DNA of 64,000 nt, taken from the NCBI GenBank assembly GCA_016748015.1, contig JAAOMT010000441.1, forward strand, positions 434,001 through 498,000, given 5' to 3'. Below are positions 14,901 to 39,412 of this stretch, piece after piece. How positions within the stretch are numbered: the stretch's first letter is position 1; each line of letters begins with the position of its first letter. This DNA comes from Geosiphon pyriformis uo1 (Eukaryota; Fungi; Glomeromycota). The notes beneath the pieces are model-generated. The model made no database searches. It saw only the letters and a program-made list of their open reading frames with translations, and was not told the DNA's origin. Position numbers and translations under genes: made by a program.

Positions 14901-15875
14901 ACATTCAGGCCTCTTTCCAATGGACCGGAACATCACCAAAACGCAAACAAGAGTTCAGCAAAGACAACAAACACTCCAAAACCAAACAGCCAGCATGTTT
15001 CCAAAGCTTATTGGTGATACCAGACAAACCAGCAGCTTTGCCATCAAGAAAATTGCTTATAACTGAAGACATCTTACACATGGTAATATCACACATGATC
15101 AGACTAAAGGCACCATCATTAACATAGGCAAAAAGAGCATATTGTTGCACCCAGAGACCAGACAAGACAAGAAGAGCATTCCACTTTCTGGTCCAATTAA
15201 CCATGATGTCATCCACTTTGAGCTTCACTTTATTAGGTTCCAAAATAAGAGAATTACCAACAACCAAATAGTCTAGAACAACTTTGCAAAAGGGCTGCTC
15301 CAAGATGCTCTGAATCATCTCACTTTTGTCTGTACTGAACTTCACCATACACTTATCAATTGTATCTCTGATAGCAGATCTTTTGGCCACTTCAGATTCA
15401 TAATATTTGGACTTTCTATATTGCTTTCTAACCTTCAAAAGATGACTTATCAAGCCAGCAGAACTCACACCATCCCCGACCATACCAAAAACTTTGGAAG
15501 CTTTGGAAGGGTCAACTTTAAACCAAGTGTCAGCTGGATGATTAAAGCCCAATGTATCATCCAGTCTCAGCACCTTTAATAACTTAACAACTAACAGCTC
15601 TAACCTGGAAAATTTAGAAGAAAGTTTATTCTTAACACAATCAAATTCACTATACCAATGTCTTGAAAAAATTTCTTCAGCAGAAGTAGTCATGGCTTCA
15701 GCTAGCACCCCCCATATTCCATCTAAGTTGCCATCATTTTCAGCTGTCTTGAACCCATCCAGAGAATCCAAAAGTGCACACTCAGAAAGTTCTTTGAAAT
15801 GTGCCCACTTTTTCTCATCAGCATCTTTAATCTTAAACTTCCAGTGATCCTTATTAGCATGTTTGCAGATGCTGT
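11913..15875 (-). pseudogene. LINE ORF2 3' part (RT, RNase H, Zn finger) with premature stops
   Basis: ORF fragments 14905-15888, 14644-14904, 13693-14418, 13384-13626, 12955-13359, 12682-12930 and 11913-12320 carry successive RT/RNase H motifs. Confidence 0.9.
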
Positions 15876-16872
15876 TATTACCAGACAAAATTAGAGATAT
15901 TATTTAGCATAAAATTATCTTATAATTCCTATCATTAATTAGCATATATTATCGTTTCAAATTATCACTTATTACATTAGCAAAAATGTCCGAAATTATC
16001 ATTTAATTAATAACCCAAATTGTACACAACACAAATGTAACCTAATTGCAATGATCAATCATGCAATACCCTGAACTATGTAATATTCAAAAGTTCGCCA
16101 AAATTTATAGAAATTTGCCGAAATAATTGATAGTTCACCGAAATATCTAATAGTTCACCGAAATATCTAATAGTTCACAGAAATAACTTGTAGTTTGCCG
16201 AAATTTATCTTTAGTTCAGCAAAATTGTAAAAAATAACAAAGTTCAAGTTCATAGAATAGTGTTATGACAAGTTGTATAAAAGAAGAGCTTCTCTCTTCG
16301 AGAAAATGTATCTTATTTTAGATTTAACAATTAGAATCATCCTTTACACACAAAACGAAATAAATATCAAATAATTTGAAAAATCAAATCCTGAATCATT
16401 TCACTTTTGAAATTAACTAATTTCTACAAAACAGTTTGAAATTGATTAGCTACCAATTTCAGTAAACTGTTAGTGACTTCAGGCCTGGATAGAAAATGTT
16501 TCTCTTAACAAAATTCTATTTCTTTTACATTTCTTTTATTTTTCTTTTCTTTTCTTTTTATAATCATTAGAGTAGCCTACAGACAAGATTTCTGTAGAAG
16601 AGTTGACTTTCACAGCAAAGTAGCTATACATTTTAGTGAGCTTCCAGATGAGCAATTTCTGGGAAAGAGTTGACGTTTACTACAACGTAACTATATAAAG
16701 TAACTGGCACAGAATTGGTCATTCCACTTATAAGCCCAGCAGTTCAAATTATAGAAGATAATTTGAAGATAAATTTAGTGATTGGAGGTTCAACCACATC
16801 CAGAAAACGGGAATTCACAGCAAACAAGCATTGACAACATTTAAGAAAAAAGACCAAAAACCTCCAGTAACA
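15876..16872 (+). repeat. 5' LTR of copy 1 (997 bp)
   Basis: Direct repeat of 25105-26081. Family termini TGTTACCAGA...TCTGGTAACA form a 10-bp inverted repeat (here TA... start and ...CCAGTAACA end). TATAAAA at 16276. One extra 20-bp unit relative to the 3' LTR. Confidence 0.97.
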
Positions 16873-16874
16873 TT

Positions 16875-16890
16875 TGGTGCTCTCCCATGG
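16875..16890 (+). promoter_or_regulatory. Primer-binding site (TGGTGCTCTCC...)
   Basis: TGG two bases after the LTR end, complementary to a tRNA 3' end ...GAGAGCACCA. Equivalent site in copy 2 at 30813. tRNA identity not determined. Confidence 0.75.
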
Positions 16891-16917
16891 AAACAACACA
16901 GCAAAAACAACTTCAAA

Positions 16918-19900
16918 GTGGTGACCACACCAGACACAACAACTCTAGAGTATTACCAATCAATTTATACCCACTGCAAGCAAAGATTCAACATTCCAGA
17001 CAGAATTAAAGTTGTCAAGAAATCAGTATACCAATACATTGAAAACTGCATCAACAATTATCTTTTTGGAAATTACAATATTTCAGAAGTTAGAAGCAAC
17101 CTTTACAATAATTTAACACACTATTCACAGTTGGGAACTGAAGACCTTAATAGTGAAACACTTGCCACTTACTTTCACAAACTTAATTTTAACATTATCA
17201 AATACTGTGAAAAAACATATCCAGTGCAGTCTTAATACACTATTGATTTTGAATTGGAAACAGAAACAAGCAACAAAGGCAAAAACAAATTAAAGCAATA
17301 TTCAAGAACCACCCCAAATACTCCAACACNNNNNNNNNNNNNNNNNNNNAAATCAGTATACCAATACATTGAAAACTGCATCAACAATTATCTTTTTGGA
17401 AATTACAATATTTCAGAAGTTAGAAGCAACCTTTACAATAATTTAACACACTATTCACAGTTGGGAACTGAAGACCTTAATAGTGAAACACTTGCCACTT
17501 ACTTTCACAAACTTAATTTTAACATTATCAAATACTGTGAAAAAACATATCCAGTGCAGTCTTAATACACTATTGATTTTGAATTGGAAACAGAAACAAG
17601 CAACAAAGGCAAAAACAAATTAAAGCAATATTCAAGAACCACCCCAAATACTCCAACACTACCAAAAACAACTGCCAAACATTTACAAACACCTGAACAA
17701 GGAACCAGCTCAAAACTTCTATTTACTATCACATCTTTTCTAGCTTCACTTGCACAAGCACAAACACCTAATTCACTCTTGAATCGATTTACAAGACCAG
17801 AAGATTTTACATCACTCAAAAGTCCCACCAGACAACAAGAATCCCTTCAAACTAGTTTCAATCTCCTTGATTTTCTAGCTGAAAATCAAAGTGAACACTC
17901 TGAGACAGCAGCAAATGAAAAAAACAACTCTGAAATAACTGAAAAAGAATCAATAGACAGTAAAAATAAAGAAGACGAAATAACAACATACATCGCAAAA
18001 ATCCCTGAATTCAATGGAGAAGATATTGAGACCAGTCCCCAAGAATGGCTTGACCAAGTTACTAAAGCTGGAGATGCAAATAGATGGAATGCTGCCAGAA
18101 TGTTAAGAACAATTCCCTACTTTCTCAAAGGAACAGCAGGAGAATAGTTTGAAAACTTGGCTGCCCCATTCAATGATTGAAACGCTTTCAAAGCAGCCTT
18201 TCTTGAACAGTTCACCGACAATAATACTTCCATCACCCTTTGCAATTGTTTTTGAAATATCAAACAAGAACCCTCTGAATCTGTTATGACTTATATTGGG
18301 AAATTCAACAAACTTCTCAGACAAATTCGCCAACTCGAAACAAACGATTATTATTCCAATGCTTAAATCTTGGATCAATTTATTGCTGGTCTAAAAGATA
18401 AACTAATTAAAAAGGTTCGCCCACATGTGCCAGAAGATTTAAACTCTGCCATACAGCATGCGAAAAGATACGAAATGGCCATGGAAGAGACCAACCACAC
18501 AAAACTTGTAAATTTGGCAATTGGAAAAACCAGCTTAGCAGCTGAGGAAAAAATTGACCAACTCACAAAGAAAGTTGAAAACTATTTCACCAATCAACAA
18601 CAACAGCAACCCCAAAGATATCAACCACCCCAAAGACGAAATCAAAATAACTTTGCACCACTTTCCAATATCCAGCCTTAGAATTGCCATTACTGTAGAA
18701 TCTCTGGCTACTGGAGAAGAGATTGCAAAAAGCTACAACAAGACCAACAAAATAGAAGTAATCAATGTTACCCTCCACTACAACAATCTTATTATCAACC
18801 GCCACCACCAGCTTACTATCCACCAAGACCCCAATACCAAAATAACTATTATCAGCCTGCCTCACAGCCAATCCAACAGCAATACCAACAACTGCTCATC
18901 CAACATTATCAAGTACCTGTTCAAAGACTGCTTACACAGAATCCATTCATACCACAAAACCAATACCAAGTAAACAACAATAGAATCAGTTCGAATAACC
19001 AATTGGTTTCTCGAAATACCACTCAACCAAGACCCAACCACTACCACACTCAATCCAGTTATTTAACAATGCCAGAAGAACAGGATTTTCACCATACTGT
19101 ACTCTCGGAAGGTAGAGCTGCAGCACAACAACAACAAAATCCTTCCTATACTCCCACTACAATTCCACCAGCCAGAATTGCTGAAAACACTAACCTTTCA
19201 AATATATTCCCTTTTAAGTTCAAAGCAAATAAGTCACCATTTCTGCTTAGCAATGCAGCCGCCAATGAACAAAAAGCAATCACGGCCATGTACACTAAAG
19301 CCGAAGTTGAAGGAAAAACAATTTACTTGATCCTAGACAGTGGATCCGCCGGAAGCATTATCACCTACCAGTTAATGCAACAGTTGAAAAGAAATGTCAA
19401 CCGACCAGCTCAAACAGTAATCGTCACTGCCGATGGCATGAAAAAGACCCCAGTAGGAGAAATTGACAATTTTCCATTCACTCTTGATGGAATCACCATT
19501 CCAGTCAAAGTTCTTGTAATGGACGCACCCTAGTACCAAGCTCTCATCAGAAATGATTGGCTTCAAAAAGCCAATGCTAATCTGAATTGGAAAACACAAG
19601 AATTAACAATTTCTTACCAAGGACAACATGCCCGGGTACCTGTCATTTGTGGTACATTCAACAAATGCTCTGAAAAAGCCCTGGCTTTTGAATTCGAACT
19701 GGAAGAGGAAAAACCCCTCATTAAAACATTCATGGCTCTGGGATTAACGTCCAATTGGGCTGATGAAACAGAACAAGAACATTTTACCCCACACACTAAA
19801 TCCGAAATCTCTGGATGGAATATATCTTACTCAAAACCCAAACCAAGGAAACAACGCCCCTATATTCCTCTTAAATATAAGAACTGTCACAAGAAACTAT

Positions 19901-22858
19901 TGTCAATGGGAGCCTGCATTTCACCTGAAGAAGAATATGAGAATCATACTTGTTATTACTGCAAGGCTTGCCACAGAGAATGATGGGGCCATCTAATAAA
20001 AAGAAGTGGAAAATAGGACAACACCCCTTGTTTGACTTGTGGAGATATGCTACCAGAAGAATGCAATTAGATTGATGTAGCCATGAGAGGAGGAGTCTGC
20101 AATCAGACCTGCCAATATGCTTTATCAATTTCAGAAAAAGTAAAAAGAGGAACACCCTTTAATGCAGCATACAACAGTGCTTTTAACAAACTTTATCACT
20201 ACCCCCATGATGCCAAAATGATTTTCGACCTAGCAATGGCATTAATTAATAGAGCTACCAAAGAAGATGTTCACCAAATGAAGGAAGCAGAATACATTGA
20301 ATACACCATGAAATTAGCTGGATTTGATTACGAAGACGAAGTAAAAATCTACCACCAAATTGCAAGTCACACCTACCCAACCCAAGAAGCTCAAATTCAA
20401 TGATTAGAGCAAATGAACATTAGGCTATGTGAAGAATGTATTATGCCTTGTGATGAACAGTGGTGTTCTGAATGCTATGCTCTTAGCATTCCCTTGTCCA
20501 GCAAAAATGATAAATATGAAATTGAATTTGGAGAACTTGAAGTGACAGAAGAAATTGAGACAACACCCATCTATCTCATCAATAATCAGCCTGCTTTACA
20601 ACTCAAATATTTCAACAACAATGGACAAGGAACAGAAAAAGCCCACAAGATCAATGTTGGATATGATCTAAGATATCCAGGAAAAGATACTCTTACTCTC
20701 AAACCCAAATCTCTCACAAAAATCAACCTCAAAATTGCCCTCAAAATCCCACCAGAAGCAATGGTTCAAATTGCTTCTCGATCATCCTTGGCAAGCAAAG
20801 GAATCAATGTTAGAGGAGGAATCATCAATGCTGGATACACAGGAGACATTACAGTCATGTTACAAAATAAAACTGATAAATCTTTCAAAATTGGATATGC
20901 TGAAAAAATTGCTTAAGCTATCTATTTACCCTTAATCAATATTTTGGGTTTACAATTAGTTAATCAAAGAGAACAGTTGGGAAAAAGCGAAAGAGGAATA
21001 CAAGGTTTTGGTTCAACTGGACGTTTCACAGTTCCAGTAAACATAGCTCTCAATGAACAGAAAGAATCTCACCAGATTTTACAACTTCCACAACCAATTA
21101 CCATTTCACCCTTTGGAGAACACCCTGAAATTTACATTTGTAAAAAGCCAACAACCACACAACAAATTTTTGAATCAAACAAACAAATCTACTTGAAACA
21201 TAATATCTTGATCCCAAACATTTATATTCCAGAAGGAACAAAGAAAGTCTGAGTTACTTTTTACAATCCCAACAATTATCCTATAGTTTTATTAAATAAC
21301 TTAGAAATTGGAATCATTCACAGTAATATCTTTCAACAAGAATTACCCCAAACAGTCCCCGATTTTTCTGAAATTATTGGACATTCACTACCAAAAATCA
21401 ACTCAAACCCCAGCTCTGAAAACTACCATATTGTTATGGAAAAACTATCTCGAATCAACATGGGACAACTTGAACCACAACAACAAAACCAGCTCAAAAA
21501 ACTAATTGCAGATTTTGCCGATATCTTTGCCAAAAACAACAATGACTTAGAAAGAACCGATTTGGTGCAACACTAATACAAGAGATGCCAAACCAAGGCG
21601 ACAACAAGCCTACCGAGTTGCTCCAGAAAGCCACCAATTTATCCAAAAAGAAGTACAACAGATGCTTAACAATGGGCTTATCCAACCATCAATGAGTCCA
21701 TGGGCCTCACCAGTGGTCCTGGTTAAAAAGAAAAATGGAAAGATACGATTTTGTGTTGATTATCGACAACTCAACAGTGTCACTATTGAGGATGCTTACC
21801 CTCTTCCGTGAATCGATGACATGTTAGATGCCCTTGGAAAATCTAAATACTTTTCAACATTAAACCTAGAAAGCGGATACTGGCAAGTTGCCATGGATCC
21901 CAAGGACTGCCCCAAAACAGCATTCACAACACAAGGAAGAAACTACAAATTCAATGTAATGCCCTTTGGATTATGCAATGCGCCAGCAACATTCCAAAGA
22001 CTCATGGATGTTGTATATGCTGGACTCCTTTGGAAATCAGTAGTTGTCTATCTTGATAACACTGATGTTTATTCTCCATCTTTCGAACTTTATTTAATTC
22101 ACCTGTGAGAAGTTTTTCAACAATTACGTAGAGCAGGATTAAAACTAAACATTGAAAAATGCCATTTTGGAAAAACAAGTTTGGTCTTTCTTGGTCACAT
22201 AGTTAATGAAGAAGGAGTCAAACCAGATCCAGGAAAAATCAGTGCTGTTAAGAACTTCAAAGTTCCACAAAATACTACAGAACTAAGAGGATTCATAGGA
22301 TTAGCATCCTACTATCGGAAGTTTATCAAAGAATTCTTGGAAATTGCAAAACCCCTCAACCAGCTCACCACCAAAAACGTTGAATACAAATGGACTACCA
22401 AACACCAAAAAGCTTTTGAAATCCTCAAGAAAAAACTAACAACAGCTCCAATCCTCGCCTACCCAGATTTCAACAACCGATTTCGACTAGCTACAGATGC
22501 TTCATATACTGCCTTTGGTGCCATCTTATCACAACTAAATGACAATGGAAATGAGCAAGTAATTGCCTATGCTAGCAGAACATTAAAACCAGCTGAGAAA
22601 AACTACTCTGCCACAGAACTAGAAACAGCAGCTGTAATTTGGGCCCTACACCACTTCAACCTTTATCTCAGGCCTAAAAAATTCGATATTATCACTGATA
22701 ATATTGGACTCAAATGGCTTCAGAACAAAAATACTCAGCTGAATGCAAAACAAACCCAATGGACAGGATTTCTAGCAAACTATTAATACATAGTACATCA
22801 CAAACCAGGAAAACTCCACACCAATGTTAACTGTCTCTCCAGAATGAGACAAGATTAG
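16918..22858 (+). pseudogene. gag-pol of copy 1: Gag (CA, CCHC knuckle), aspartic protease, Cys-rich insert, dUTPase, RT, RNase H
   Basis: IPEFNGED..PQEWL; degenerate CHYC..SGYWRRDC knuckle; LILDSGSAGS; GYDL/ASRSS/GGIINAGYTG/RGIQGFGSTG; [30 protein letters not shown][N]; LATDAS, NYSATELE, ITDN. Many in-frame stops and one decay frameshift near 21575. Confidence 0.93.
17330..17349. other. Assembly gap flanked by an identical 310-bp duplication
   Basis: 20 Ns; 17020-17329 is repeated base for base at 17350-17659. Confidence 0.9.
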
Positions 22859-22910
22859 AAAAACACAAAAACCAACACTCAACTTAACCAACCAAAAAAG
22901 CCAACAAACA

Positions 22911-24295
22911 ATAAATTCGAAAAACTACAATGATCTCAAACAATATTTGGAAACATTAACAATCCCAACAGATTGGTCTTCAGAGGAAAAACATCGACTA
23001 CAACAACAAGCCAAACAATATTTTCTACACAACAACATTATTTATTACCGAAATTTCAAAAACTCAGACAAACCACTCAGATTAATACAAGAACAGGAAA
23101 AAGAAACTATATTATACAACATGCACTCAGATCCTTCATCAGCCCACTTCAGAAAAGACAGCACCACCCAAAGAACACTAGAATACTACTTTTGGCCTCA
23201 AATAAGAAAAGACATTCACGAATATGTCGAATCTTGTGATAGTTGTCAAAAAAGAGGAGGAACTTGCCCTACAGAACCTTTAAATCCAATCAAAGTTGAA
23301 CAGTCTTTTGACAGAGTTGGTATCGATTTAGTCAGACCACTACCTATCACAAACCAAGGAAACCACTACATTACAGTAGCCGTAGACTATCTCACCAAAT
23401 AGCCTGAAGCCAGAGCCATTCAATGGGCAGATGCAAAATCAGTAGCAAACTTCATCTACAAAGACATCATTGTAGACATAGATGCCCAATAGAACTTTTA
23501 TCTGATCAAGGAACACATTTCATGAACAATTTAATCTAGGAAATTTGTGGACAATTTAATGTCAAGAGACCATTATCTTCATTCTACCATCCACAAACAA
23601 ATGGACTGGTAGAATGGTTCAACAGAACATTGTGTGAATCATTAGCCAAAGTTTCAACTGATTTTGAGCAAGAATGGAATCTCTTTATTCCATCAGTGTT
23701 ACTAGCATATAGGACACTAAAACAAGATATCACAAAACACACACCATTTGATTTAACTTACGGAAGGACGGCAACATTACCAATTAGTTTCACAGTGGAA
23801 ACATACCCAGTACAACCAATCAATGAAAACAATTTCCAAGAAACGCTTCAACAAAGAGCCTACACTCTGCTTAGCACATTGGAAGAAAAACGACAAATAG
23901 CAGCCACTCATATTGAACACTCCCAAGCTCAACAAAAAGAATGGCATGATGACAAATTGCCTCCAGTCACCAATGAATTTAAAATTGGAAACAAAGTTCT
24001 CTTACATAGAACTAAAGCCGAAAAACAATAAAATGGAAAATTTGAAAATAAATGGGATGGACCATTCTTTATCCATGAAGTTTTAGGCAACAGATCATAT
24101 AAGCTAAGACTTGATGACAAAATTCTAGCAAAAGTTGCACATGGAGATCGTTTGAAACACTATAATTCCAGAAACAATTCTGAACTATTAATTCCACAAA
24201 TTGGTACACATTTCCCTTTAATCAATTCCAAAGACATTCCCCAAAATTTAGAACCAATAGTTGTCATTGAACAGCCTCACAACTTGAATACTTAA
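22911..24295 (+). pseudogene. Integrase ORF of copy 1 (HHCC, DDE, GPF module), separate from pol
   Basis: H-SDPSSA-H...CDSC, GIDLV, VDYLTK, SDQGTHF, YHPQTNGLVE, WDGPF. The start codon is decayed to ATA (ATG in copy 2). Confidence 0.9.
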
Positions 24296-24416
24296 TTTAA
24301 ATTTATTATTATAGTTATCTTCTTATAATTTAGAAACAATCTCACAAAAACAAAACAAAAATAACATAAAAACCCATGCACCAAAAATAATTTTCTTTTA
24401 TTTCAAATTGCTTATA

Positions 24417-25136
24417 ATGACTATTCCTCAAAACATTCAACAATTATCCCAAAAACTAATGTTGGTTTTAAAAACAATACCCAAATTATCCATTACTGTT
24501 ACTGAAAACCACATTAATTATACCCAAACAGAAGTAGTTACAAATTTAGCCCCAAATTCACAAAAATATCACCCGTATAAGAAGAACACAAGAAGTTATA
24601 CTGGAATTTACCTGCCAGAACTTTTAAAACTTGCTTTAAGAGAAAACCTAATGCTCACTTTGATTAGTATTCCACCAAATGCTACAATTCAACAAAGACT
24701 TCAACTGTGTTTCAATGAGGAAAATACTGAATATCCTTCAATCTATAGATATTTTCACATTGGAAAAACACTCTACAAATGGAAACTGGAACTTACAACA
24801 GCAAACCTCACAAAAAAAGCTATTCAGAAACAACTTCACAACAAATTCAAGACAACAGCTGAATCAACAAACAGTCGCTACAGGCTTAGAGCTGCTCTTA
24901 GACTTTATGACTTATTCCACACCTGTGAAAACATACTACAAAACCCAAATTTTCAACCTTTGAAGATTCAATACATTGGAAAGCTCACAGAACTGAAATT
25001 TCAACAATTTTCAGACCAAATTTCTTCAATAATTTTGGATTATTATCTGGAAATGACAAACAGTACTTGGACTTTGACAGAGCTCAGTCTTGAAGAGGAG
25101 GTTATGTTACCAGACAAAATTAGAGATATTATTTAG
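24417..25136 (+). CDS. Accessory ORF3 of Gypsy copy 1 (239 aa, unknown function)
   Basis: Intact ORF between integrase and the 3' LTR, ending 32 nt inside U3. Homologous frame in copy 2 (37743-38462). Confidence 0.8.
   Translation: MTIPQNIQQLSQKLMLVLKTIPKLSITVTENHINYTQTEVVTNLAPNSQKYHPYKKNTRSYTGIYLPELLKLALRENLMLTLISIPPNATIQQRLQLCFNEENTEYPSIYRYFHIGKTLYKWKLELTTANLTKKAIQKQLHNKFKTTAESTNSRYRLRAALRLYDLFHTCENILQNPNFQPLKIQYIGKLTELKFQQFSDQISSIILDYYLEMTNSTWTLTELSLEEEVMLPDKIRDII
25092..25101 (+). promoter_or_regulatory. Polypurine tract
   Basis: GAAGAGGAGG three bases before the 3' LTR; GAGAAGGAAG in copy 2. Confidence 0.7.
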
Positions 25137-26081
25137 CATAAAATTATCTTATAATTCCTATTATTAATTAGCATATATTATCATTTCAAATTATCACTTA
25201 TTACATTAGCAAAAATGTCCGAAATTATCATTTAATTAATAACCCAAATTGTACATAACACAAATGTAACCTAATTGTGATGATCAATCATGCAATACCC
25301 CGAACTATGTAACATTCAAAAGTTTGCCAAAATTTATAGAAATTTGCTGAAATAATTGATAGTTCACTGAAATATCTAATAGTTCACAGAAATAACTTGT
25401 AGTTCGCCAAAATTTATCTTTAGTTCAGCAAAATTGTAAAAAATAACAAAATTCAAGTTCATAGAATAGTGTTACGACAAGTTGTATAAAAGAAGAGCTT
25501 TTCTCTTCGAAAAAATGTATCTTACTTTAGATTTAACAATTAGAATTATCCTTTACACACAAAACGAAATAAATATCAAATAATTTGAAAAATCAAATCC
25601 TGAATCATTTCACTTTTGAAATTAACTAATTCCTACAAAACAGTTTGAAATTGATTAGCTACCAATTTCAGTAAACTGTTAGTGACTCCAGGCCTGAATA
25701 GAAAATATTTTTCTTAACAAAATTCTATTTCTTTTACATTTCTTTTATTTTTCTTTTCTTTTCTTTTTATAATCATTAGGGTAGCCTACAGACAAGATTT
25801 TTGTAGAAGAGTTGACTTTTACAGCAAAGTAGCTATACATTTTAGTGAGCTTCCAGATGAGCAATTTCTGGGAAAGAGTTGACGTTTACTACAACATAAC
25901 TATATAAAGTAACTGGCATGGAATTGGCCATTCCACTTATAAGCCCAACAGTTCAAATTATAGGAGATAATTTGAAGATAAATTTAGTGATTGGAGGTTC
26001 AACCACATCCAGAAAACAGGAATTTACAGCAAACAAGCATCAACAACATTTAAGAAAAGAGACCAAAAACCTCTGGTAACA
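25105..26081 (+). repeat. 3' LTR of copy 1 (977 bp)
   Basis: TGTTACCAGA...TCTGGTAACA; direct repeat of the 5' LTR. Confidence 0.97.
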
Positions 26082-26809
26082 CTGTTCAAACAAGCATTCA
26101 GAAGACCATCCAGCCCAATAGACATCAAGACAGCCAAGTGATCTGTGTCAAAAAATTCTGAGACAAAACCAACATCATGATTTACAACAGCTGAAATCAA
26201 AGAGTCACTAACTAGAATATAGTCCAAAACCTTGCTAATGCCTCTTGAATTGCTCCAAGTAGGAATCCTAGCTAGAGAATGGCCACCAAAAACATTAACT
26301 AGACCCAAACCTAAGCATTTTCTAAGACTCACCCTCTTGACTGAATTGTCTTTATTAAAGTCCCCACCCAAAACAACAAAAATACTTTTGTTAACAGTAT
26401 CAGCAATGAATGAATTGATAACAAAAGCCTGAGCAAAATGGTCACCACCAGACACACAAGCATAAAGCCCAATGATAGACACAGAGAGCTTGTTCTTAAA
26501 CAAAAGACAAATTGAAAGAACTTTGCCCTTTACCTCCTCAACTTTGAAAACATGACAAGCCAGAGAATCATTCACAAAAATGGCCACACCAGCCCCACAA
26601 AACCCAACATCCAGACCAAACATAAAAACCCAAACACTCTCAAATTTTTTCATAATCCAAGGTTGTGAACTGGAACACAACTTGGTTTCTGTAACAATCA
26701 AGATTGAACTACCAGATTCCTTATACCAATGAAAAATGTTCTTCTGTTTTGCAGGATTGTTCATTCCCCTAATATTACACATGGCAATTTTCCAAATAAA
26801 ACTGGTCAT
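26082..26809 (-). pseudogene. LINE ORF2 5' part (APE endonuclease)
   Basis: MTSFIWKIAMCNIRGMN...VTETKL...GAGVAIFV...VLGGDFN...TWSNSRG..KVLDYILVS...FDTDH. Confidence 0.92.
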
Positions 26810-28633
26810 TGTGACAAAGAGATAACCAAAGAACCTGAGCCAGCACACAACTGATCCAACTTAGCCAAAATCAAACCAACAGAGATGTTGAGGGCAACCA
26901 ACTTCAACTCTAGACCACCAACTTTGGAAGTCAAGACTTTGGAACTACTCAGACCCAAGAGCAGATCAGTAACACCCAGAGAGAAAGAAGTAGGCTGAAC
27001 AAAAAGATCATCAACTGCCATGTCAAAATCCAAGTCGGAGTTTGTAACCACAAGAAAAACAGAGGTTGGAGACTGAGAAACAACCACAGAAGGAACCATT
27101 TGAGAGGAGGGTGCCAAGAGTGCCAAACCAATATTGTCAAGACGAGAAAGAATGTTCAAAATTTGATCAGACAGAAGCCCTACAGAGCATTCTAAAAGCG
27201 CTAAGCGAACACTCAAAGGAGAATTGACCACAGATATAGAGGGAGGTGCCTCACCTGAACTTAAAGTACTGGAAGGCGGGGAACCGGAACCAGAACCAGC
27301 ATGAAAACCATGAGAGACTAAAGCAACTGAGACCACTTGAGCCCAAGATTTGCCACCAAAGGCAACAGGACGAGAGATTAGTACATTTTTCTTTACATAC
27401 AATTTGGCCAGCTGGAAATAAGTATCTAGGTTGGCAGGTCTTATAAAAAACTTTGAAGATTTAAGAGCTGATGCAACCTCAGCATCACATTTCAAGGCAG
27501 AATGACCGAACTTCCCACACTATTCACAGTAAACCAAATTCAGCCTAGCCCATGAGAGTTTTACACCACCAAAAATTGGCTCCGTACGAAAAGCTAACTC
27601 CAAAACCTCATCAGAATCAAAACAAACAACAGCACAGCAGACCCTATTACCAGTCTCTAATAACCAATTTATGACACAAGTCTTTTCACCAGCCCCTTCA
27701 AGAAGATCCCCAAAATCATGAGCAGTAGTTCCTACTGGCAAAATAAACAAAAGCGCCCTGAACTGATTTCTAGATGCCCAAGTTTCATGATAGCCCACCG
27801 CCATAGCCACACGAACCAAATCTTTACCAATCAGGAAGGACCACCTAGCAGCCAAAAACACAGCCTGTTCCAGTTCAGCAAATTCCACCACAGCCTTTTG
27901 CCATAAACCAATTAACTGGATTTTAATCGACTTAATTTTTCCAAACTCGGATACTGTGGCGATAATCATTTCCTTGATTACTACGGCCTGATCTGAGTAA
28001 ATTCTTTGTCTTTTAAGATCACTGTTTACTATGATGTTATTTTCTCTGGCCAATAACACGGCCTTTTCCATGCTTTCTGACAAAGTAAACATTGATTTGA
28101 TGATCCCTTCAAATTTTAAGGAAGTAGTGGCCCCCCCAAAACCATTGATTTCTGAAAATAATTTCCTTATGACCTAAGTTTTAGCTGTTGCCGATTTCCC
28201 TTCTACAGCCAAAAGATTGATATTCAAAGCAAAAGATTTCTTCACAGCTACTTCCACCAGAGTTTTAACAATTTTGGGGTCCACTCACATCTTTTCTAAA
28301 GAGAAAGACAAATGGAAAGAAAGAGAAACTTCCTTCTCATCATCTATGTCATAATTAATAGAGCCAAAAAGGGAACTGATAGCCACACCAGTATTAAAAC
28401 ACTTTGCATTAGGTGTATTCATTTGGGAGTCAGAAGTGGCTCTACTATCAAAGTCTTCTCCATCCGTATCCATGCTAGTAAGTTGCCCATTCACACTAAC
28501 AGGCCCACTATCTTTAAGATTCTTATCCGCACTTGAAAGTTTAAGGCTTTTTGACTTTTTGAGTTAAACCACCACCAATTGAACTAGTGGTCAAGACTCT
28601 GGCAGACCTTCTCTTAGCACTAGGACCACTCAT
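26806..28633 (-). pseudogene. LINE ORF1 (RRM-like folds, degenerate CCHC knuckle, C-terminal coiled coil)
   Basis: Homologous to ORF1 at 60947-62917 (FGKIKSIKIQLIGLWQKAVVEF, LPVGTTAHD, FGGKSWAQV, SSSKVLTSKVGGLE). Confidence 0.88.
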
Positions 28634-29828: not shown

Positions 29829-30810
29829 TGTTACCAGACAAAATTAGAGATATTATTTAGCATAAAATTATCTTATAATTCCTATCATTAATTAGCATAT
29901 ATTATCATTTCAAATGATCACTTATTATATTAGCAAAAATGTCTGAAATTATCATTTAATTAATAACCCAAATTGTATACAACACAAATATAACCTAATT
30001 GCGATGATCAATCATGCAATACCCCAAACTATGTAACATTCAAAAGTTTGCCGAAATTTATAGAAATTCACCGAAATAATTGATAGTTCACCGAAATATC
30101 TAATAGTTTGCAGAAATAACTTGTAGTTTGCCAAAATGTATCTTCAGTTCAGCAAAATTGTAGAAAATAGCAAAGTTCAAGTTTATAGAATAGTGTTATA
30201 ACAAGTTGTATAAAAGAAGAGCTTCTCTCTTCGAGAAAATGTATCTTACTTTAGATTTATCTCTTAAAACCGTTCTTATACACACAAAAAAAAATAAATA
30301 TCAAATAATTCGAAAAACCAAATTCTTTAATTATTGTACTTGGAAAATCCCCAAAACCCAACTAACATTTCGAAATTGATTAGCTACCAATTTCAGTAAA
30401 CTGTTAGTGACTCCAGGCCTAGATAGAAAACGTTTTCCTTGATAAAATCCTATTTCTTTTACACTTCTTTTATTTTTCTTTTCTTTTCTTATTACAATCA
30501 TTAGGGTAGCCTACAGATGAGATTCCTGTAGAAGAGTTGACTTTCACAGCAAAGTAACTACACATTTTTAGTGAGCTTCCAGATGAGCAATTCCTGGGAA
30601 AGAGTTGACATTTACTACAACATAACTACATAAAGTAACTGGCAAGGAATTGGCCATTCCACACATAAGCCCAGCAAATTCAAATTATAGGAGATAATTT
30701 GAAGATAAATTCAGTTACTGGAAGTTCAACCACATCCAAAAAACGTGAATTCACAGTAAATAAGTATTAACAACATTACAGAAAAGAGACCAAAAAAACC
30801 TCTGATAATA
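29829..30810 (+). repeat. 5' LTR of copy 2
   Basis: Direct repeat of 38431-39412, followed by the PBS TTTGGTGCTC. Confidence 0.96.
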
Positions 30811-30857
30811 TTTGGTGCTCTTCTACAGAAACAACACAGCAAAAAAACAACTTCAAA

Positions 30858-33800
30858 GTGGTGATCACACCAGACACAACAACTTTAGTGTATTACCAAT
30901 CAATTTACACCCACTGCAAGCAAAGATTCAACATTCCAGACAGAATTGAAGTTGTCAAGAAATCAGTATACCAATACATTGAAAACCACATTAACAATTA
31001 TCTTTTTGGAAATTACAATATCTCAGAAGTTAGAAGCAACCTTTACAATAATTTAGCACACTATTTACAGTTGGGAACTAAAGACCTTAATAGTGAAACA
31101 CTTGCCACTTACTTTCACAAACTTAAGTTTAACATTATCAAATACTGTGAAGAAACATATCCAATGCAGTCTCAATACACTATTGATTTTGAATCAGAAA
31201 CAGAAACAAGCAACAAAGGCAAAAACAAATTAAAGCAATATTCAAGAACCACCCCAAATACTTCAACACTACCAAAAACAACTGCCAAACATTTACAAAC
31301 ACCTGAACAAGGAACCAGCTCAAAACTTCTACTTACTATTACATCTTTTCCAGCTTCACTTGCACAAACACAAACACCTAATTCACTCTTAAATCGATTT
31401 GCAAGACCAGAAGATTTTACATCACTCAGAAGTCCCACCAGACAACAAGAATCCCTTCAAACTAGTTTCAATCTCCTTGATTTTCTAGCTGAAAATCAAA
31501 GTGAACACTCTGAGACAGCAGCAAATGAAGAAAACAACTCTGAAATAACTGAAGAAGAATCAATAAACAGTGAAAATGAAGAAGACGAAATGACAACATA
31601 CATCGTAAAAATTCCTGAATTCAATGGAGAAGATATTGAGACCAGTCCCCAAGAATGGCTCAACCAAGTTACTAAAGCTGGAGATGCAAATGGATGGAAT
31701 GCTGCCAGAATGTTAAGAACAATACCCTACTTTTTTAAAGGAACAGCAAGAAAATGGTTTGAAAATCTTGCTGCCCCATTCAATGATTGGAATGCTTTCA
31801 AAGCAGTCTTCCTTGAACAGTTCATTGACAATAATACTTCCATCACTTTTCGCAATCATTTTCGAAATATCAAACAAGAACCCTCCGAATCTGTTATGAC
31901 TTATATTGGAAAATTCAACAAACTTCTCAGATGGATTCGCCAACTCGAGACAAACAATTATTATTCTGATGCTCAAATTTTGGATCAATTTATCACTGAT
32001 CTAAAAGATAAACTAATTAAAAAGGTTCGCCCACACGCGCCAAAAGATTTAAACTCTGCCATACAGCATGCAAAAAGATATGAAATGGCCATGAAAAAAG
32101 CCAATCGTACAAAACTTGTAAATTTGGCAATTGGAGAAACCAGCTCAGCAGCTGAGAAAAAAATTGACCAACTCACAAAGAAGGTCGAAAACTATTTTAC
32201 CAACCAACAACAACAACAACCCCAAAGATATCAACCACCCCAAAGACAAAATCAAAATAACTTTGCACCACTTTCCAATAACCAGCCCCAGAATTGCCAT
32301 TACTGTGAAATCTCTGGCCACTGGAAAAGAGATTGCAGAAAGCTGCAATGAAACCAACAAAATAGAGATAATCAATATTACTCTCCACCACAGCAATCTT
32401 ATTATCAATCATTACCACCAGCTTACTATTCACCAAGACCCCAATACCAAAATAACTATTATCAGCCCATCCCACAACCAATCCAACAGCAATACCAATA
32501 ACCACCCACTCAACATTATCAAGTACCTACTCGAAGACTGATTACACAAAATCAATTTACACCACAAAACTGATACCAAGTAAACAACAGTAGAATCAGT
32601 TTGAACAACCAATTAGTTCCCCGAAATACCACTTAAACAAGACCCAACCATTACTACACTCAACCCAGTTATTTAACAATGCTGGAAAAACAGGATTTTC
32701 ACCATACTGCACTCTCGGAAGGTAGAGCTGCAGCACAACAACAATGAAACCTTTCTCATAACCACACCACTATTCTACCAGCCTGAATTGCTGAAAATGC
32801 CAATCTCTCTAATATCTTTTCTTTTGAATTTGAAGCAAATGAATCACCATTCTTGCTTAGCAATGCAGCGGCTAATGAGCAAAAAGTCATCACTGCAATG
32901 TACACAGAAGCTGAAATAAAAGAAAAGCCAATTCGCTTGATTCTAGACAGTGGATCTGCTGGAAGCATTATTACCTACCAGTTAATGCAACAGTTGAAAA
33001 AAAATGTTGACTGACCAGCTCAAACAGTAATTGTCACTGCCGATGGCATGAAAAAGACCCCAGTAGGAGAAATTGACAATTTTCTATTTACTTTTGATGG
33101 AATCACCATTCCAGTCAAAGTTCTTGTAATGAACACACTCCAGTACCAAGCTCTTGTCGGAAATGATTGGCTTCAAAAAGCCAATGCTAATCTGAATTGG
33201 GAAACACAAGAGTTAACAATCTCCTACCAAGGACAACACGCCTGGGTATCTGCCATTTGTGGTACATTCAACAAACGCTCTAAAAAAGCCCCAGCTTTTG
33301 AATTTGAACCAGAAAAAGAAAAACCAATAATCGAAACATTCATGGCTCTTGGATCAACGTCCAACTGGGCCGATGAAACAGAACAAGAATATTTTACCCC
33401 ACACACTAAACCTGAAACCTCTGGATGGAATATACCTTACTCAAAACCCAAACCAAGGAAACAACGCCCCTATATTCCCCTTAAATGTAAGGACTGTCAC
33501 AAAAAACTATCATCAATGGGAGCCTGCATTTTGCCTGAAGAAGAATATGAGAATCATATTTGTTATTACTGCAAGGCTTGCCACAGAGAGCGATGGGGCC
33601 ATCTAATAAAAAGGAGCGGAAAATGGGACAACACCCTTTGTTTGACTTGTGAAGATATGCTACCAGAAGAATGCAATTGGATTAATGTAGCAATGAGAGG
33701 AGGCGTCTGTGATCAGACTTGCCAATATGCTTTATCAATTTCAGAAAAAGTAAAAAGAGGAACACCCTTTAATATAGCATATAATAGTGCTCTCAACAAA

Positions 33801-36193
33801 CTTTATCACTACCCTCATGATGCCGAGATGATTTTCGACTTAGCAATGGCATTAATTAATGGAGCTACCAAAAAAGATGTTCATCAAATGAAGGAAGCAG
33901 AATACATTGAATACACTATGGAATTAGCTGGATTCAATTACGAAGATGAAGTAGAAGTCTACCACCAAATTGCAAGTCACACCTACCCAACTCAAGAAGC
34001 TCAAATTCAATGATTAGAGCAAATGAACATTAGGCTATGTGAAGAATGCATTATGCCTTGCAATAAACAATGGTGTTCTGAATGCTATGCTCTTAGTATC
34101 CCTTTGCCCAGCGAAAATGATGAGAATGAAATTGAATTCAGAGAACCTGAAGAAATGGAAGAAATTGAAACAACACCCATCTACCTTATTGAAAATCAGC
34201 CTGCCTTACAACTTAAATACTTCAACAACAACGGACAAGGAATAAAACCTGAAAAAACACACGAAATTGATGCTGAATATGACCTAAGATATTCAGGCAA
34301 GGATACTCTTGTTCTCAAACCCAAATCTCTCACAAAAATTAACCTCAAAATTGCATTCGAAATCCTGCCAGGAGCAATGATTCAAATTGCCTCCCAGTCC
34401 TCTCTGGCAAGCAAAGAAATCAATGTTAGAGGAGGAATAATTGATGCTGGATATACTGGAGACATAACAGTGATGCTTCAAAATGAAACTGACAAACCAT
34501 TCAAGATCAAACATGCTGAGAAAATTGCCCAAGCTATTTACCTATCCTTAATCAACATTTCGGGTTTGCAACTAGTCAATCAAAGAGAACAATTAGGAAA
34601 AAGCGATAGAGGAACCCAAGATTTTGGTTCAACTGGACGATTCACAGTTCCAGTTAATATAGCTCTTAACACACAGAACAAATCCCACCAGATTCTCAGA
34701 CTTTCACAACCAATTACCATCTCACCCTTTGGAGAACATCCGGAAATCTACACTTGCACAAAGCCAACAACCACACAACAAATTTTTGAGTCCAATGAAC
34801 AAGTCTGCTTGGAACATAATATTTTGATCCCAAACATTTATATTCCAGAAGGAACAAAGAAAGTCCAAGTTACTTTTTACAACCCCAATAATTACCCCAT
34901 AATTTTATTAAATAATTTAGANNNNNNNNNNNNNNNNNNNNNNNNNNNNNNNNNNNNNNNNNNNNNNNNNNNNNNNNNNNNNNNNNNNNNNNNNNNNNNN
35001 NNNNNNNNNNNNNNNNNNNNNNNNNNNNNNNNNNNNNNNNNNNNNNNNNNNNNNNNNNNNNNNNNNNNNNNNNNNNNNNNNNNNNNNNNNNNNNNNNNNN
35101 NNNNNNNNNNNNNNNNNNNNNNNNNNNNNNNNNNNNNNNNNNNNNNNNNNNNNNNNNNNNNNNNNNNNNNNNNNNNNNNNNNNNNNNNNNNNNNNNNNNN
35201 NNNNNNNNNNNNNNNNNNNNNNNNNNNNNNNNNNNNNNNNNNNNNNNNNNNNNNNNNNNNNNNNNNNNNNNNNNNNNNNNNNNNNNNNNNNNNNNNNNNN
35301 NNNNNNNNNNNNNNNNNNNNNNNNNNNNNNNNNNNNNNNNNNNNNNNNNNNNNNNNNNNNNNNNNNNNNNNNNNNNNNNNNNNNNNNNNNNNNNNNNNNN
35401 NNNNNNNNNNNNNNNNNNNNNNNNNNNNNNNNNNNNNNNNNNNNNNNNNNNNNNNNNNNNNNNNNNNNNNNNNNNNNNNNNNNNNNNNNNNNNNNGCTAC
35501 TTCAGAAAAACAAGTTTAGCTTTTCTTGGTCACATTGTTAGCAAAGATGGAATTAAACCAGACCCCGGAAAAATCAGTACTGTCAAGAACTTCAAGACTT
35601 CACAAAATACCACAGAATTAAGAAGATTTATTGGATTAGCATCCTATTACCGAAAATTCATCAAAAGATTCTCAGAAATTGCAAAACCCCTCAACCAGCT
35701 CACTACTAAAAATGTCGAATACAAATGGACAGAAGAACACCAAAATGCCTTCGAGATACTTAAGGAAAAACTCACAACAGCTCCAATTCTTGCCTATCCA
35801 GATTTCAGCAACTGATTCCAGTTAGCAACTGACACCTTTTATACTGCATTTGGTGTCATTCTATTATAGTTAGATGACAATGGAAATGAGCGAATAATTG
35901 CTTATGCTAGTAGAACATTAAAGTCAGCCGAAAAGAACTACCCCGCAACAGAATTAGAAACCACAACAGTAATTTGGGCCCTACATCACTTCAACCTTTA
36001 CCTCAGACCCAAAGAATTTGATATTATCACTGATAATATTGGACTTAAATGGCTTCAAAACAAAAACACCCAGCTAAATACAAAACAAACCTGATGAACA
36101 GGATTTTTAGCTAATTACCAATACATCATACACTACAAACCAGGAAAACTCCACACCAACGTTGATTGTCTCTCAAGGATGAGGCAAGATTAA
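30858..36193 (+). pseudogene. gag-pol of copy 2 (gag to dUTPase in one frame; RT partly in the N gap)
   Basis: ORFs 30858, 33048 and 34023 share a frame. CHYCEISGHWKRDC, LILDSGSAGS, GGIIDAGYTG. RNase H ends RMRQD-TAA at 36191-36193. Confidence 0.92.
34922..35496. other. Assembly gap (575 N) within RT of copy 2
   Basis: Run of N; the corresponding stretch of copy 1 is ~855 bp. Confidence 0.95.
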
Positions 36194-36242
36194 AAAACAA
36201 AACCAACACCCATTTGAATTAACAGCATCAAAACAACAAACA

Positions 36243-37628
36243 ATGAACCCCGAAAACTACAACAATTTCAAACAATATTTGAAGACATTAACAATCCCAA
36301 CAGATTGGTTCCCAGATAAAAAACATTGGTTACAACAACAAGCCAAACAATATTTTCTACACAACAACATTATCTATCATCGAAATTTCAAAAACCCAAC
36401 CAAACCACTCAGATTAATACAAAAACAAAAAAAAGAGACCATTTTATACAATATGCACTCAGATCCTTCATCAGCACACTTCGAAAAAGATAGCACTACC
36501 CAAAGAACACTAGAATACTACTTTTGGCCTTGAATGAAAAAAGACATTCACAAATATGTCGAATCTTGTGATAGTTGTCAAAGAAGAAAAGGAACTCGCC
36601 CTACAGAATCTTTAAATCCAATCAAAGTTGGACAGCCTTTTAACAGAGTTGGTATCAATTTAGTTGGACCACTATCTATTACCACTCAAGGAAACCGTTA
36701 TATTGCAGTAGCTATAGATTATCTTACTAAATGGCCTGAAGCCAGAGCCATTCAACGAGCAGATGCAAAATCAGTAGTAAATTTCATCTACGAAGACATC
36801 ATTTGTAGACATAGATGTCCAATTGAACTTTTATCTGATCAGGGAACACACTTTGTGAACAACCTGATACAAGAAATTTGTGAACAATTCAATGTCAAAA
36901 GACCTTTGTCTTCGCCCTACCATCCACAAACAAATGGACTTGTAGAACATTTTAACAGAACATTGTGTGAGTCATTAGCCAAAGTCTCAACCGATTTTGA
37001 GCAAGAATGGGATCTCTTTATTCCATCAGTGTTACTAGCATATAGGACATTAAAACAAAATACCACGAAACACACACCATTTGATTTAACTTATGGAAGG
37101 ATGGCAACATTACCAATTAGTTTCACAGTGGAAACATACCCAGCACAACCGATCGATAAAAACAATTTCCAAGAAATGCTTCAGCGAAGAGCCTATACTC
37201 TGCTTAGCACATTGAAAGGAAAACAACAAATAGCAGCCACTCATATTGAACACTCTCAAGCTCAACAAAAAGAATGGCATGATGACAAATTGCTTTCAGT
37301 CACCAATAAATTCAAAATTAGAAACAAAGTTCTCTTATACAGAACTAAAGCTGAAAAACAATGGAGTGGAAAATTTGAAAATAAATGGGATGGACCATTC
37401 TTTATCCATGAAGTCCTAGGCAATGGATCATATAAGCTAAGACTTGATGACAAAATCCTAGCAAAAGTTGCACATGGAGATCGTTTGAAACACTATCATT
37501 CCAGAAACAATCCTAAACCATTAATTCCACAAATTGGTACACATTCCTTTTTGATCAGTCCCGAAGATATTCCCTGAAACTTAGAACCAATAGTTGTCAT
37601 TGAACAACCTTCCAATCTGAACACTTAA
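36243..37628 (+). pseudogene. Integrase ORF of copy 2 with its own ATG
   Basis: MNPENYNNFKQYL..., HHCC, DDE core, WSGKFENKWDGPF; two internal TGA stops. Confidence 0.92.
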
Positions 37629-37742
37629 TTTAATTTTACTAGTTATTCTCTTATAATTTAGAACAATCTCACAAAAACAAAACAAAAATAACATAAAAAC
37701 CCATAAACCAAAAATAAATTTTTATTTTTTCAAGTGCTTATA

Positions 37743-38462: not shown

Positions 38463-39412
38463 CATGAAATTATCTTATAATTCCTATTATTAATTAGCAT
38501 ATATTATCATTTCAAATGATCACTTATTACATTAGCAAAAATGTCCGAAATTATCATTTAATTAATAACCCAAATTGTACACAACACAAATGTAATCTAA
38601 TTGTGATGATCAATCATGCAATACCCCAAACTATGTAACATTCAAAAGTTCGCTGAAATTTATAGAAATTTGCCAAAATAATTGATAGTTCACCGAAATA
38701 TCTAATAGTTTGCAGAAATAACTTGTAGTTTACCGAAATGTATCTTTAGTTCAGTGAAATTGTAGAAAATAGCAAAGTTCAAGTTTATAGAATAGTGTTA
38801 TGACAAGTTGTATAAAAGAAGAGCTTCTCTTTTCGAGAAAATGTATCTTACTTTAGATTTATCTTTTAAAACCATTCCTATACACACAAAAAAAAATAAA
38901 TATCAAATAATTCAAAAAACTAAATTCTTTAATTATTGTACTTGGAAAATTCCCAAAACCCAACTAACATTTCGAAATTGATTAGCTACCAATTTCAGTA
39001 AACTGTTAGTGATTCCAGGCCTGGATAGAAAACGTTTTCCTTGATAAAATTCTATTTCTTTTACACTTCTTTTATTTTTCTTTTTTTTTCTTATTACAAT
39101 TATTAGGGTAGCCTACAGACGAGATTTCTGTAGAAGAGTTGACTTTCATAGCAAAGTAACTACACATTTTTAGTAAGCTTCCAGACAAACAATTCCTGGG
39201 AAAGAGTTGACATTTACTACAACGTAACTACATAAAGTAACTGGCAAGGAATTGGCCATTCTACATATAAGCCCAGCAAGTTCAAATTATAGAAGATAAT
39301 TTGAAGATAAATTCAGTTACTGGAGGTTCAACCACATCCAGAAAACGTGAATTCACAGCAAATAAGTATTAACAACATTACAGAAAAGAGACCAAAAAAA
39401 CCTCTGGTAACA
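38431..39412 (+). repeat. 3' LTR of copy 2
   Basis: TGTTACCAGA...TCTGGTAACA. Confidence 0.96.

What the first reader, a model, noticed from the sequence alone, without database searches (positions are those of the whole stretch)
16572..16820. Duplicated, covarying double-hairpin RNA module in U5
Consensus unit 1: CTACAG-AYGAGATTC-CTGTAG-AAG-AGTT(G)ACTTT-cacagc-AAAGTAACT. Unit 2: TTCCAG-ATGAGCAATTC-CTGGGA-AAG-AGTT(G)ACGTT-tactac-AACGTAACT. Stem sequences differ between units yet still pair, while the loop AYGAG..ATTC, the AAG linker and the bulged G are kept. That is compensatory change visible directly in the sequence. Three more stems follow: GGAAT/ATTCC inside CTGG/CCAG, a perfect TTCAAATTAT/ATAATTTGAA, and AATT..TGGA-GGTT/AACC-TCCA..GAATT. 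This is a candidate new structured RNA: packaging/dimerisation signal, IRES for the AUG-less Gag, or ribozyme.
Basis: seen in the sequence. Interest (0 to 1): 0.75.

Follow-up and report, generated by a model that had tools for sequence, protein, structure and literature searches.

The report
Duplicated hairpins in fungal retrotransposon leader
A fungal jumping gene carries two old, still-pairing copies of a double-hairpin motif near the likely start of its RNA; they probably help two RNA copies pair and get packaged, while ribosomes likely read straight through them to a predicted GUG start codon.

Summary
The duplication is real. Units at 16577-16625 and 16642-16692 sit in all four LTRs of two Ty3/Gypsy elements, whose Gag matches Geosiphon pyriformis proteins. 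Between the units, 7 stem letters differ and none breaks a pair (3 double changes, 2 of them double transversions; neutral chance 8e-5 to 8e-4). That is one duplication event, not covariation across families: sibling copies differ mainly by C>T/G>A decay, no outside homologue was found, and folding is weak (z -1.0 to -1.8). There is no Rfam match and no hammerhead core. An IRES is not needed: the 1341 nt from just behind the TATA box to the capsid ATG hold 2 ATGs shared by both elements (18.5 expected), and Gag homology in three diverged families starts at a Val, a GTG in strong context. This points to cap-dependent leaky scanning. Only about 30 nt separate the primer site from Gag, and two hairpins with palindromic loops flank the units, so a packaging/dimerisation signal placed in an enlarged U5 is the best reading (0.45, untested). 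No RNA data were available; U5 itself is inferred.

The parts
15876..16872 (+). 5' LTR of element A (Ty3/Gypsy with dUTPase; whole element 15876-26081, 4-bp target duplication CTGT)
   Evidence: 95.8% identical to the 3' LTR
16276..16283 (+). TATA-box-like motif; the last ATG fixed in all four LTRs follows at 16306-16308, and AATAAA at 16359-16364. These mark the inferred U3/R/U5 limits
   Evidence: transcription start and poly(A) site not measured
16438..16460 (+).
   Evidence: identical in 4 of 4 LTRs, right after the most diverged A/B block; loop-loop duplex -6.5 kcal/mol
16515..16570 (+). Pyrimidine tract (41 of 45 nt) ending in TTAG; looks like a splice acceptor, untested
16577..16625 (+). 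Unit 1: 6-bp hairpin, AAG linker, 9-bp bulged hairpin
16642..16692 (+). Unit 2: diverged duplicate of unit 1 with compensatory stem changes
16704..16739 (+). Stem 3: inner helix 16711-16725 around the palindrome TGGCCA (16716-16721; intact in 3 of 4 LTRs, mutated in this copy); an alternative pairing with 16705-16708 would hide the palindrome
16743..16767 (+). Perfect 10-bp A/U-rich hairpin
   Evidence: (pair probability 0.94-0.96)
16772..16815 (+). Last, irregular stem; supported in B-type copies, weak in A-type copies
16875..16885 (+). Primer-binding-site-like sequence starting TGG, 2 nt after the LTR; the tRNA was not identified
   Evidence: sequence; no tRNA gene in the window
16918..16920 (+). 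GTG in frame with Gag, A at -3 and G at +4; inferred start of a long Gag form
17980..17982 (+). Position of the capsid-proximal ATG (decayed in element A; intact at 31590 in element B); inferred start of a short Gag form
25786..25901 (+). Units 1 and 2 in the 3' LTR of element A (25105-26081)
30511..30627 (+). Units 1 and 2 in the 5' LTR of element B (29829-30810)
39113..39229 (+). Units 1 and 2 in the 3' LTR of element B (38431-39412, target duplication ATGC)

Best explanation
The two units are an old tandem duplicate of a double hairpin in the LTR of a fungal Ty3/Gypsy retrotransposon, and they are likely the core of its packaging/dimerisation signal in the 5' leader of the genomic RNA. Shown: the duplicate, its pair-keeping stem changes, two flanking hairpins with self-complementary loops, a gap of only about 30 nt between primer site and Gag, and an AUG-poor stretch of 1.3 kb. 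Inferred steps: (1) transcription starts near 16310, so the module lies in the 5' leader only; (2) ribosomes load at the cap and scan through the weak hairpins; some start at the GUG (long Gag with a helical N-terminal domain), the rest at the capsid AUG (short Gag); (3) Gag's single zinc-knuckle nucleocapsid binds the two matching units, probably at their conserved unpaired purines, while the palindromic loops pair two genomes; (4) bound Gag would block scanning and move that RNA from translation to packaging.
For: Structure under selection: 7 of 30 stem letters differ between units and all pairs are kept, 3 by double change; neutral simulation gives 8e-5 to 8e-4 (stems chosen post hoc). Two of the doubles are double transversions, whereas 71 of 71 single-copy LTR changes are transitions. 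A U-G pair in 4 of 4 unit-2 copies and the kept bulge point to + strand RNA. Two palindromic-loop hairpins occur in the B leader; 5 of 1000 shuffles reach two (criterion set after seeing them); duplex energies -6.5 and -9.5 kcal/mol. Gag has a zf-CCHC match (E 0.0033, below Pfam's cut-off). Scanning: 2 shared ATG in 1341 nt against 18.5 expected (P 1.8e-6), the antisense control is not depleted (13 vs 15.1), and 0 of 1000 shuffles are as low in either element. No ATG is fixed in all copies of the 609-nt leader, against 5 in the 433 nt upstream (Fisher P 0.012). The best 60-nt fold is only -11 to -14 kcal/mol. Start residue: Val 73, Met 7, Ile 2, Leu 2 of 84 proteins in this family; Val 33, Met 10, Leu 2 of 45 true matches in a family about 20% identical (60 examined, 3 false matches dropped, 12 without the motif); Val 4 of 4 in a third family. 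Precedent: palindromes plus a duplicated hairpin pair in MuLV (PMC5874298, passages read); 5' UTR palindromes in Ty1 (PMC6844567, abstract).
Against: No experiment and no RNA-level data bear on function. All covariation comes from one duplication; CM R1 finds only the 8 window units and nothing in 32 distant Gypsy loci. Folding z-scores are weak, and several alternative pairings compete, one of which hides the TGGCCA loop. The module is not visibly more conserved between elements A and B than the U3 part (2 of 33 fixed transversions/indels in U3). Family copies break unit-2 stem b freely at CpG sites. The lentiviral dimer signal and the main MMTV one lie downstream of the primer site (PMC5874298); this one lies upstream. 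AUG depletion upstream of the module alone is not significant (251 and 170 of 1000 shuffles), and synonymous shuffling shows no extra avoidance of out-of-frame ATG in the extension (1731 of 2000). Against the antisense control the leader alone gives Fisher P 0.12.
Confidence: 0.45

Rival explanations
1. A cap-dependent translation or export enhancer like the retroviral PCE: redundant stem-loops in R-U5 recruit a host RNA helicase that helps ribosomes scan the very long leader.
For: Position in the inferred U5 and redundancy match the PCE description (PMC2657110, passages read). Up to 1.3 kb must be scanned.
Against: Does not explain the palindromic loops. The hairpins are weak enough to need little help. 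PCEs are described from animal retroviruses only in the passages read.
Confidence: 0.18
2. No present function: a slippage duplication by reverse transcriptase, whose stems were kept complementary by template-switch correction of hairpins.
For: Weak folding; a single event; no homologue elsewhere; no extra conservation over U3; the LTR has other tandem repeats.
Against: Copy-correction should erase the bulge and the U-G pair, yet both are kept. Loop a and the linker stay nearly fixed while loop b drifts (3 of 6 letters), and two double transversions pair up.
Confidence: 0.17
3. Splicing control: each unit follows a TTAG acceptor-like site and holds a donor-like GTAACT in the 3' arm of stem b, so the hairpins would mask donors and set the ratio of unspliced genome to a spliced Gag mRNA lacking the primer site.
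For: Pyrimidine tract plus TTAG at 16515-16570, TTAG at 16633, donor-like motifs at 16620, 16687 and 16700. Several ab initio gene models use unit 1 as an exon.
Against: The donors are weak matches to the recalled fungal consensus; gene models are predictions, not evidence; splicing is not needed to reach the GUG.
Confidence: 0.12
4. IRES for an AUG-less Gag.
For: Structured stretch after a pyrimidine tract and before a non-AUG start. The 263 nt upstream of the module are not significantly AUG-depleted on their own, so entry at the module followed by scanning is not excluded.
Against: No ATG is fixed anywhere in the leader, the module included. The hairpins are weak. The module ends about 100 nt before the GUG, with the primer site in between. 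No Rfam IRES match.
Confidence: 0.05
5. Self-cleaving ribozyme.
For: Unit 2 has a one-mismatch likeness to the hammerhead core followed by GAAA. Hammerheads occur in other retroelements (PMC4209133, search listing only).
Against: No stem II can form between the two core halves in any of the 10 candidates. No Rfam ribozyme match at E <= 10 in two copies. Cleavage in U5 would cut off the template for minus strong-stop DNA (inference).
Confidence: 0.03

Closest known systems
MuLV (gammaretrovirus) dimer/packaging region SL-A to SL-D (PMC5874298, passages read)
   Same: Palindrome-bearing hairpins next to a duplicated pair of hairpins in the 5' leader of a retroelement whose Gag has one zinc knuckle; the letters GACG occur in both inferred ancestral loops.
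   Different: Here GACG straddles stem and loop and is not a tetraloop; each unit is a double hairpin; the module lies in the LTR, upstream of the primer site; no sequence homology was shown.
Ty1 5' UTR PAL1/PAL2 dimer signal (PMC6844567, abstract; PMC4974528, section 7 and passages read)
   Same: LTR retrotransposon of a fungus with self-complementary sequences in the LTR-derived 5' UTR; packaging signals near the 5' end.
   Different: Ty1 is a copia-type element, and per the abstract kissing loops were not confirmed there; no duplicated double hairpin is described in what I read.
Retroviral post-transcriptional control element, PCE (PMC2657110, passages read)
   Same: Redundant stem-loops in R-U5 that aid cap-dependent translation and are not an IRES.
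   Different: Defined by RNA helicase A binding and a reporter effect, untested here; known from animal retroviruses.
Rice tungro bacilliform virus leaky scanning and MuLV CUG-initiated Gag extension (PMC3542737, PMC5902531, passages read)
   Same: Non-AUG start followed by several hundred AUG-free nucleotides up to a downstream AUG; an N-terminally extended Gag from a non-AUG codon.
   Different: Here the AUG-poor stretch is about 1.3 kb and includes the leader; no large shunt stem-loop or conserved short uORF is present; the extension is a predicted four-helix domain with no clear match.

Membership tests
Ty3/Gypsy LTR retrotransposon (host element) | LTRs with terminal inverted repeat, target-site duplication, primer site and purine tract | tested here: met
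Ty3/Gypsy LTR retrotransposon (host element) | Gag, protease, RNase H, then integrase in that order | tested here: met
   Pfam matches in order, dUTPase between protease and RNase H; the RT core itself was not among the ORFs matched
Known Rfam family | Score at or above the gathering threshold | tested here: not met
   5 weak matches in each of two copies, all far below threshold
Hammerhead ribozyme | Core CUGANGA and GAAA (recalled motif) joined by stem II | tested here: not met
   10 one-mismatch candidates in 4 LTRs, none with a closing stem II pair
Hammerhead ribozyme | Self-cleavage | not testable with these tools
   needs in vitro assay
Gammaretroviral psi (SL-C/SL-D) | Two GACG tetraloop hairpins | tested here: not met
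   loops are 9 and 11 nt; definition from PMC5874298
Retroelement dimer-initiation site | Short palindrome in a hairpin loop in the 5' leader | tested here: met
   two such hairpins, 5 of 1000 shuffles reach two; leader position inferred; one loop may be hidden by alternative pairing
Retroelement dimer-initiation site | RNA dimer formation that depends on the palindrome | not testable with these tools
   needs native gels with mutants
Packaging signal (psi) | Gag/NC binding and selective encapsidation | not testable with these tools
   needs binding and packaging assays
PCE | Redundant stem-loops in R-U5 | tested here: inconclusive
   redundant hairpins shown; R-U5 limits only inferred
PCE | RNA helicase A binding and cap-dependent enhancement | not testable with these tools
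   needs reporter and pull-down
IRES | Cap-independent initiation | not testable with these tools
   sequence signs favour scanning instead
Non-AUG start with leaky scanning | Conserved near-cognate codon in strong context at the onset of coding conservation | tested here: met
   GTG with A at -3 and G at +4; Val at this place in three families, preceded by Lys or Asn in 37 of 40 family-3 proteins that have a preceding residue; the codon is seen as DNA only in this family
Non-AUG start with leaky scanning | AUG depletion up to the downstream start | tested here: met
   2 vs 18.5 expected; Met 0.04% in the extension vs 1.46% in the capsid, 70 proteins

The most novel reading that the evidence does not exclude
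A clade of glomeromycete Gypsy elements has moved its packaging and dimer signals into an enlarged U5 and couples them to translation: ribosomes scan about 1.3 kb without AUG, through a new double-hairpin motif, to make two Gag forms from a conserved GUG and a downstream AUG, and Gag binding to the duplicated motif switches the RNA from translation to packaging.
Probability: 0.2. Interest if true: 0.7.

Novelty: new variant of a known kind. Interest (0 to 1): 0.43.

Why it matters
Packaging sequences of LTR retrotransposons 'have not been precisely defined' even for Ty1 and Ty3 (PMC4974528, section 7). A 49-nt motif present twice, with built-in compensatory changes, is a compact test object. 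LTR elements cover 41.2% of the Geosiphon genome (PMC11952901, passage read), so signals of this family bear on how that expansion happened. The side result may matter more: a GUG-initiated Gag kept across families only about 20% identical. Two searches for non-AUG Gag starts in LTR retrotransposons (listings only, 2 of 2 and 20 of 113 papers shown) returned no such case. It would also mean that gene models of these elements have wrong N-termini.

Tried and rejected
No whole genome was available, so sister-family LTRs could not be read. No RNA holder listed; this says nothing on expression. The strict unit pattern found 0 matches in metagenome contigs and 0 in prokaryote genomes. A capsid alignment found 32 soil-metagenome loci at 21-28% identity. 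They encode a short Gag of another clade and hold no unit match (best 11.7 bits). The same query found no relative in viral contigs. P0221, the one non-Geosiphon relative looked up, had no further homologue. Family-wide variant tables (one DNA run, possibly the window's own source): none of the 8 transversion rows falls in the units, and no variant of 3% or more is listed over 30359-30399, which covers the palindromic hairpin. The tables omit variants near contig ends, so I did not count this as evidence. RNAalifold on the four copies: covariation term -0.31, 1 of 107 pairs with a double change. The N-terminal Gag domain model (pLDDT 59.5, four helices) has no clear match: none at E <= 0.001 in PDB or BFVD, best Z 6.3 (rmsd 3.2, 85 aligned); Pfam gave nothing significant. 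The domain was not searched in the protein atlas. Shunting was rejected: the uORF from 16306 is 22 codons in A and 46 in B, and there is no large stem. A coding role for the units was rejected: reading frames upstream of the GTG differ between A and B. A search for conserved RNA structure in Gypsy LTRs of these fungi returned 4 papers, none on the subject by title (listing only). No supplements were read; TE libraries in supplements of PMC11952901 may hold these LTRs.

Full report
Setting. The region lies in the last third of a 997-nt LTR (15876-16872). The window holds two full Ty3/Gypsy elements, A (15876-26081) and B (29829-39412), each with a 4-bp target duplication, terminal inverted repeats, a primer-site-like TGG and a purine tract. 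Pfam finds Gag, protease, dUTPase, RNase H and integrase. All 120 listed Gag homologues (of 562) are annotated as Geosiphon pyriformis, so the host is very likely that glomeromycete or a close relative. The LTR pairs are 95.8% and 95.0% identical, A versus B about 89%. All 71 single-copy changes are transitions: these are decayed copies.

Observation. Unit 1 (16577-16625) and unit 2 (16642-16692) each consist of a 6-bp hairpin, an AAG linker and a 9-bp bulged hairpin, in all four LTRs. On 8 unit copies, 96.7% of 120 cells pair against 33-50% for slid controls; three pairs change on both sides and one becomes U-G. Placing 7 random substitutions on the 30 stem letters keeps all pairs with three doubles in 8e-5 to 8e-4 of trials, and keeps all pairs at all in 2e-4 to 1e-2. 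The stems were chosen after the fact, so the true figure is weaker. One double change (C-G/T-A) could be plain deamination; the other two are double transversions. This is good evidence that the stems mattered after the duplication, but it is one event. Among sibling copies there is no covariation. In 5620 contigs of one DNA run, variation is mostly C>T and G>A, strongest at CpG, including sites in unit-2 stem b. Folding is weak: z -1.8 and -1.1 for single copies, -1.0 to -1.6 with decay corrected. Each hairpin is worth 0 to -11 kcal/mol. The perfect 10-bp hairpin holds; the last stem holds in B-type copies only, and its GGTT/AACC part cannot close a 1-nt loop.

Search for relatives. Rfam gives nothing near threshold in two copies. 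A strict pattern finds nothing in metagenome contigs or prokaryote genomes. A model built from the 8 units finds only those units in the window, and nothing in 32 distant Gypsy loci. Sister families exist in the same species (9 of 10 distant proteins looked up), but their DNA could not be fetched.

Where the module sits in the RNA. A TATA-like motif at 16276 and AATAAA at 16359 suggest a start near 16310, a short R and a U5 of about 490 nt. This is inference. The primer site is followed by only about 30 nt before Gag homology begins, so the usual place for packaging signals is almost absent. Two hairpins with palindromic loops flank the units: TAGCTA at 16447 (4 of 4 copies) and TGGCCA at 16716 (3 of 4). 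Their loop-loop duplexes give -6.5 and -9.5 kcal/mol, and 5 of 1000 shuffles of the leader have two such hairpins (post hoc criterion). A competing helix can hide the second palindrome. Palindromic loops are the common mark of retroviral dimer-initiation sites, and MuLV combines them with a duplicated hairpin pair (PMC5874298, passages); Ty1 uses palindromes in its 5' UTR (PMC6844567, abstract).

How Gag is translated. Homology among three Geosiphon Gag families begins at Lys/Asn-Val-Ala. In both elements the Val codon is GTG, in frame, with A at -3 and G at +4. The residue is Val in 73 of 84 proteins of this family (Met 7, Ile 2, Leu 2). In a family about 20% identical it is Val in 33 of 45 (Met 10, Leu 2; 60 examined, 12 lacked the motif, 3 false matches dropped), and in a third 4 of 4. 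Met rather than Ile as the decay product implies GTG. These are gene models from decayed copies of one assembly, so they count as three observations, not 133. A Met stands at the capsid start 244 codons downstream in most proteins. From 16309 to that ATG, 1341 aligned nt hold 2 ATGs shared by A and B, against 18.5 expected from the rest of the element (P 1.8e-6). The antisense triplet is not depleted, and per-copy counts (4 and 5) are below all 1000 shuffles. All five ATG sites in the leader vary between copies in the way CpG decay of ACG predicts. Weaker points: the leader alone gives 72 and 34 of 1000; the part upstream of the module is not significant; synonymous shuffling adds nothing. The pattern matches leaky scanning past a non-AUG start, as in rice tungro bacilliform virus and MuLV's CUG-initiated Gag (PMC3542737, PMC5902531, passages). 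An IRES is therefore unnecessary, though not strictly excluded.

Mechanism. Best reading (0.45): the duplicated motif is the Gag-binding core of a packaging/dimer signal in an enlarged U5, weak enough to be scanned through until Gag binds. Shown are the anatomy, the compensatory changes and the AUG depletion; transcription limits, GUG use, Gag binding, dimerisation and the switch are inferred. Rivals: a PCE-like enhancer (0.18; PMC2657110, passages), a neutral duplicate kept paired by copy-correction (0.17), splicing control (0.12), IRES (0.05), ribozyme (0.03; no hammerhead stem II). Earlier notes of this scan supplied the PCE, intron and slippage leads; they concern other genomes, I did not check their claims, and they are not support. 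Look-ups by sequence and by place returned nothing.

Verdict. A real, probably selected RNA motif with no database match, of a known kind (5' leader cis-signal of a retroelement), in a new arrangement. The evidence rests on one duplication and on sequence alone. Interest 0.43; the conserved GUG start is the most testable new lead.

Noticed in passing
window 16309-17982 (and 30242-31592): About 1.3 kb almost free of ATG, with a conserved GTG at the onset of Gag homology and a conserved Met at the capsid start (61 of 70, 21 of 26 and 1 of 2 proteins in three families): a likely two-form Gag made by leaky scanning.
   Followed up: yes
window 30858-31262: Gag N-terminal domain of about 100 residues, predicted four-helix, shared by three Geosiphon families at about 20% identity; no clear Pfam or fold match.
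   Followed up: partly
window 16438-16460: Hairpin with a palindromic 9-nt loop, identical in all four LTRs right next to the most diverged block.
   Followed up: partly
window 16300-16449: 21 of the 33 fixed transversions/indels between elements A and B fall in this 150-nt block, suggesting a recombined or fast-evolving R region.
   Followed up: no
window 17020-17349: About 310 nt repeated identically after a 20-N gap; most likely an assembly artefact in element A's gag.
   Followed up: partly
four LTR copies: All 71 single-copy changes are transitions; C>T falls mostly in CpA (25 of 54) and CpT (15), and CpG sites are mostly decayed family-wide. This looks like a RIP-like or methylation-driven process in a glomeromycete.
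   Followed up: partly
window 14905-15903 and 26024-28173 (- strand): Element A interrupts a probable LINE-like element (weak endonuclease match); other LINE-like ORFs lie at 60875-62917.
   Followed up: no
window 20404-20916 and 34014-35519: dUTPase between protease and RNase H in both elements.
   Followed up: no
L121, L141, L142: Soil-metagenome contigs of another Gypsy clade, 6-7 kb, with repeated ends (full elements or one-LTR circles).
   Followed up: no
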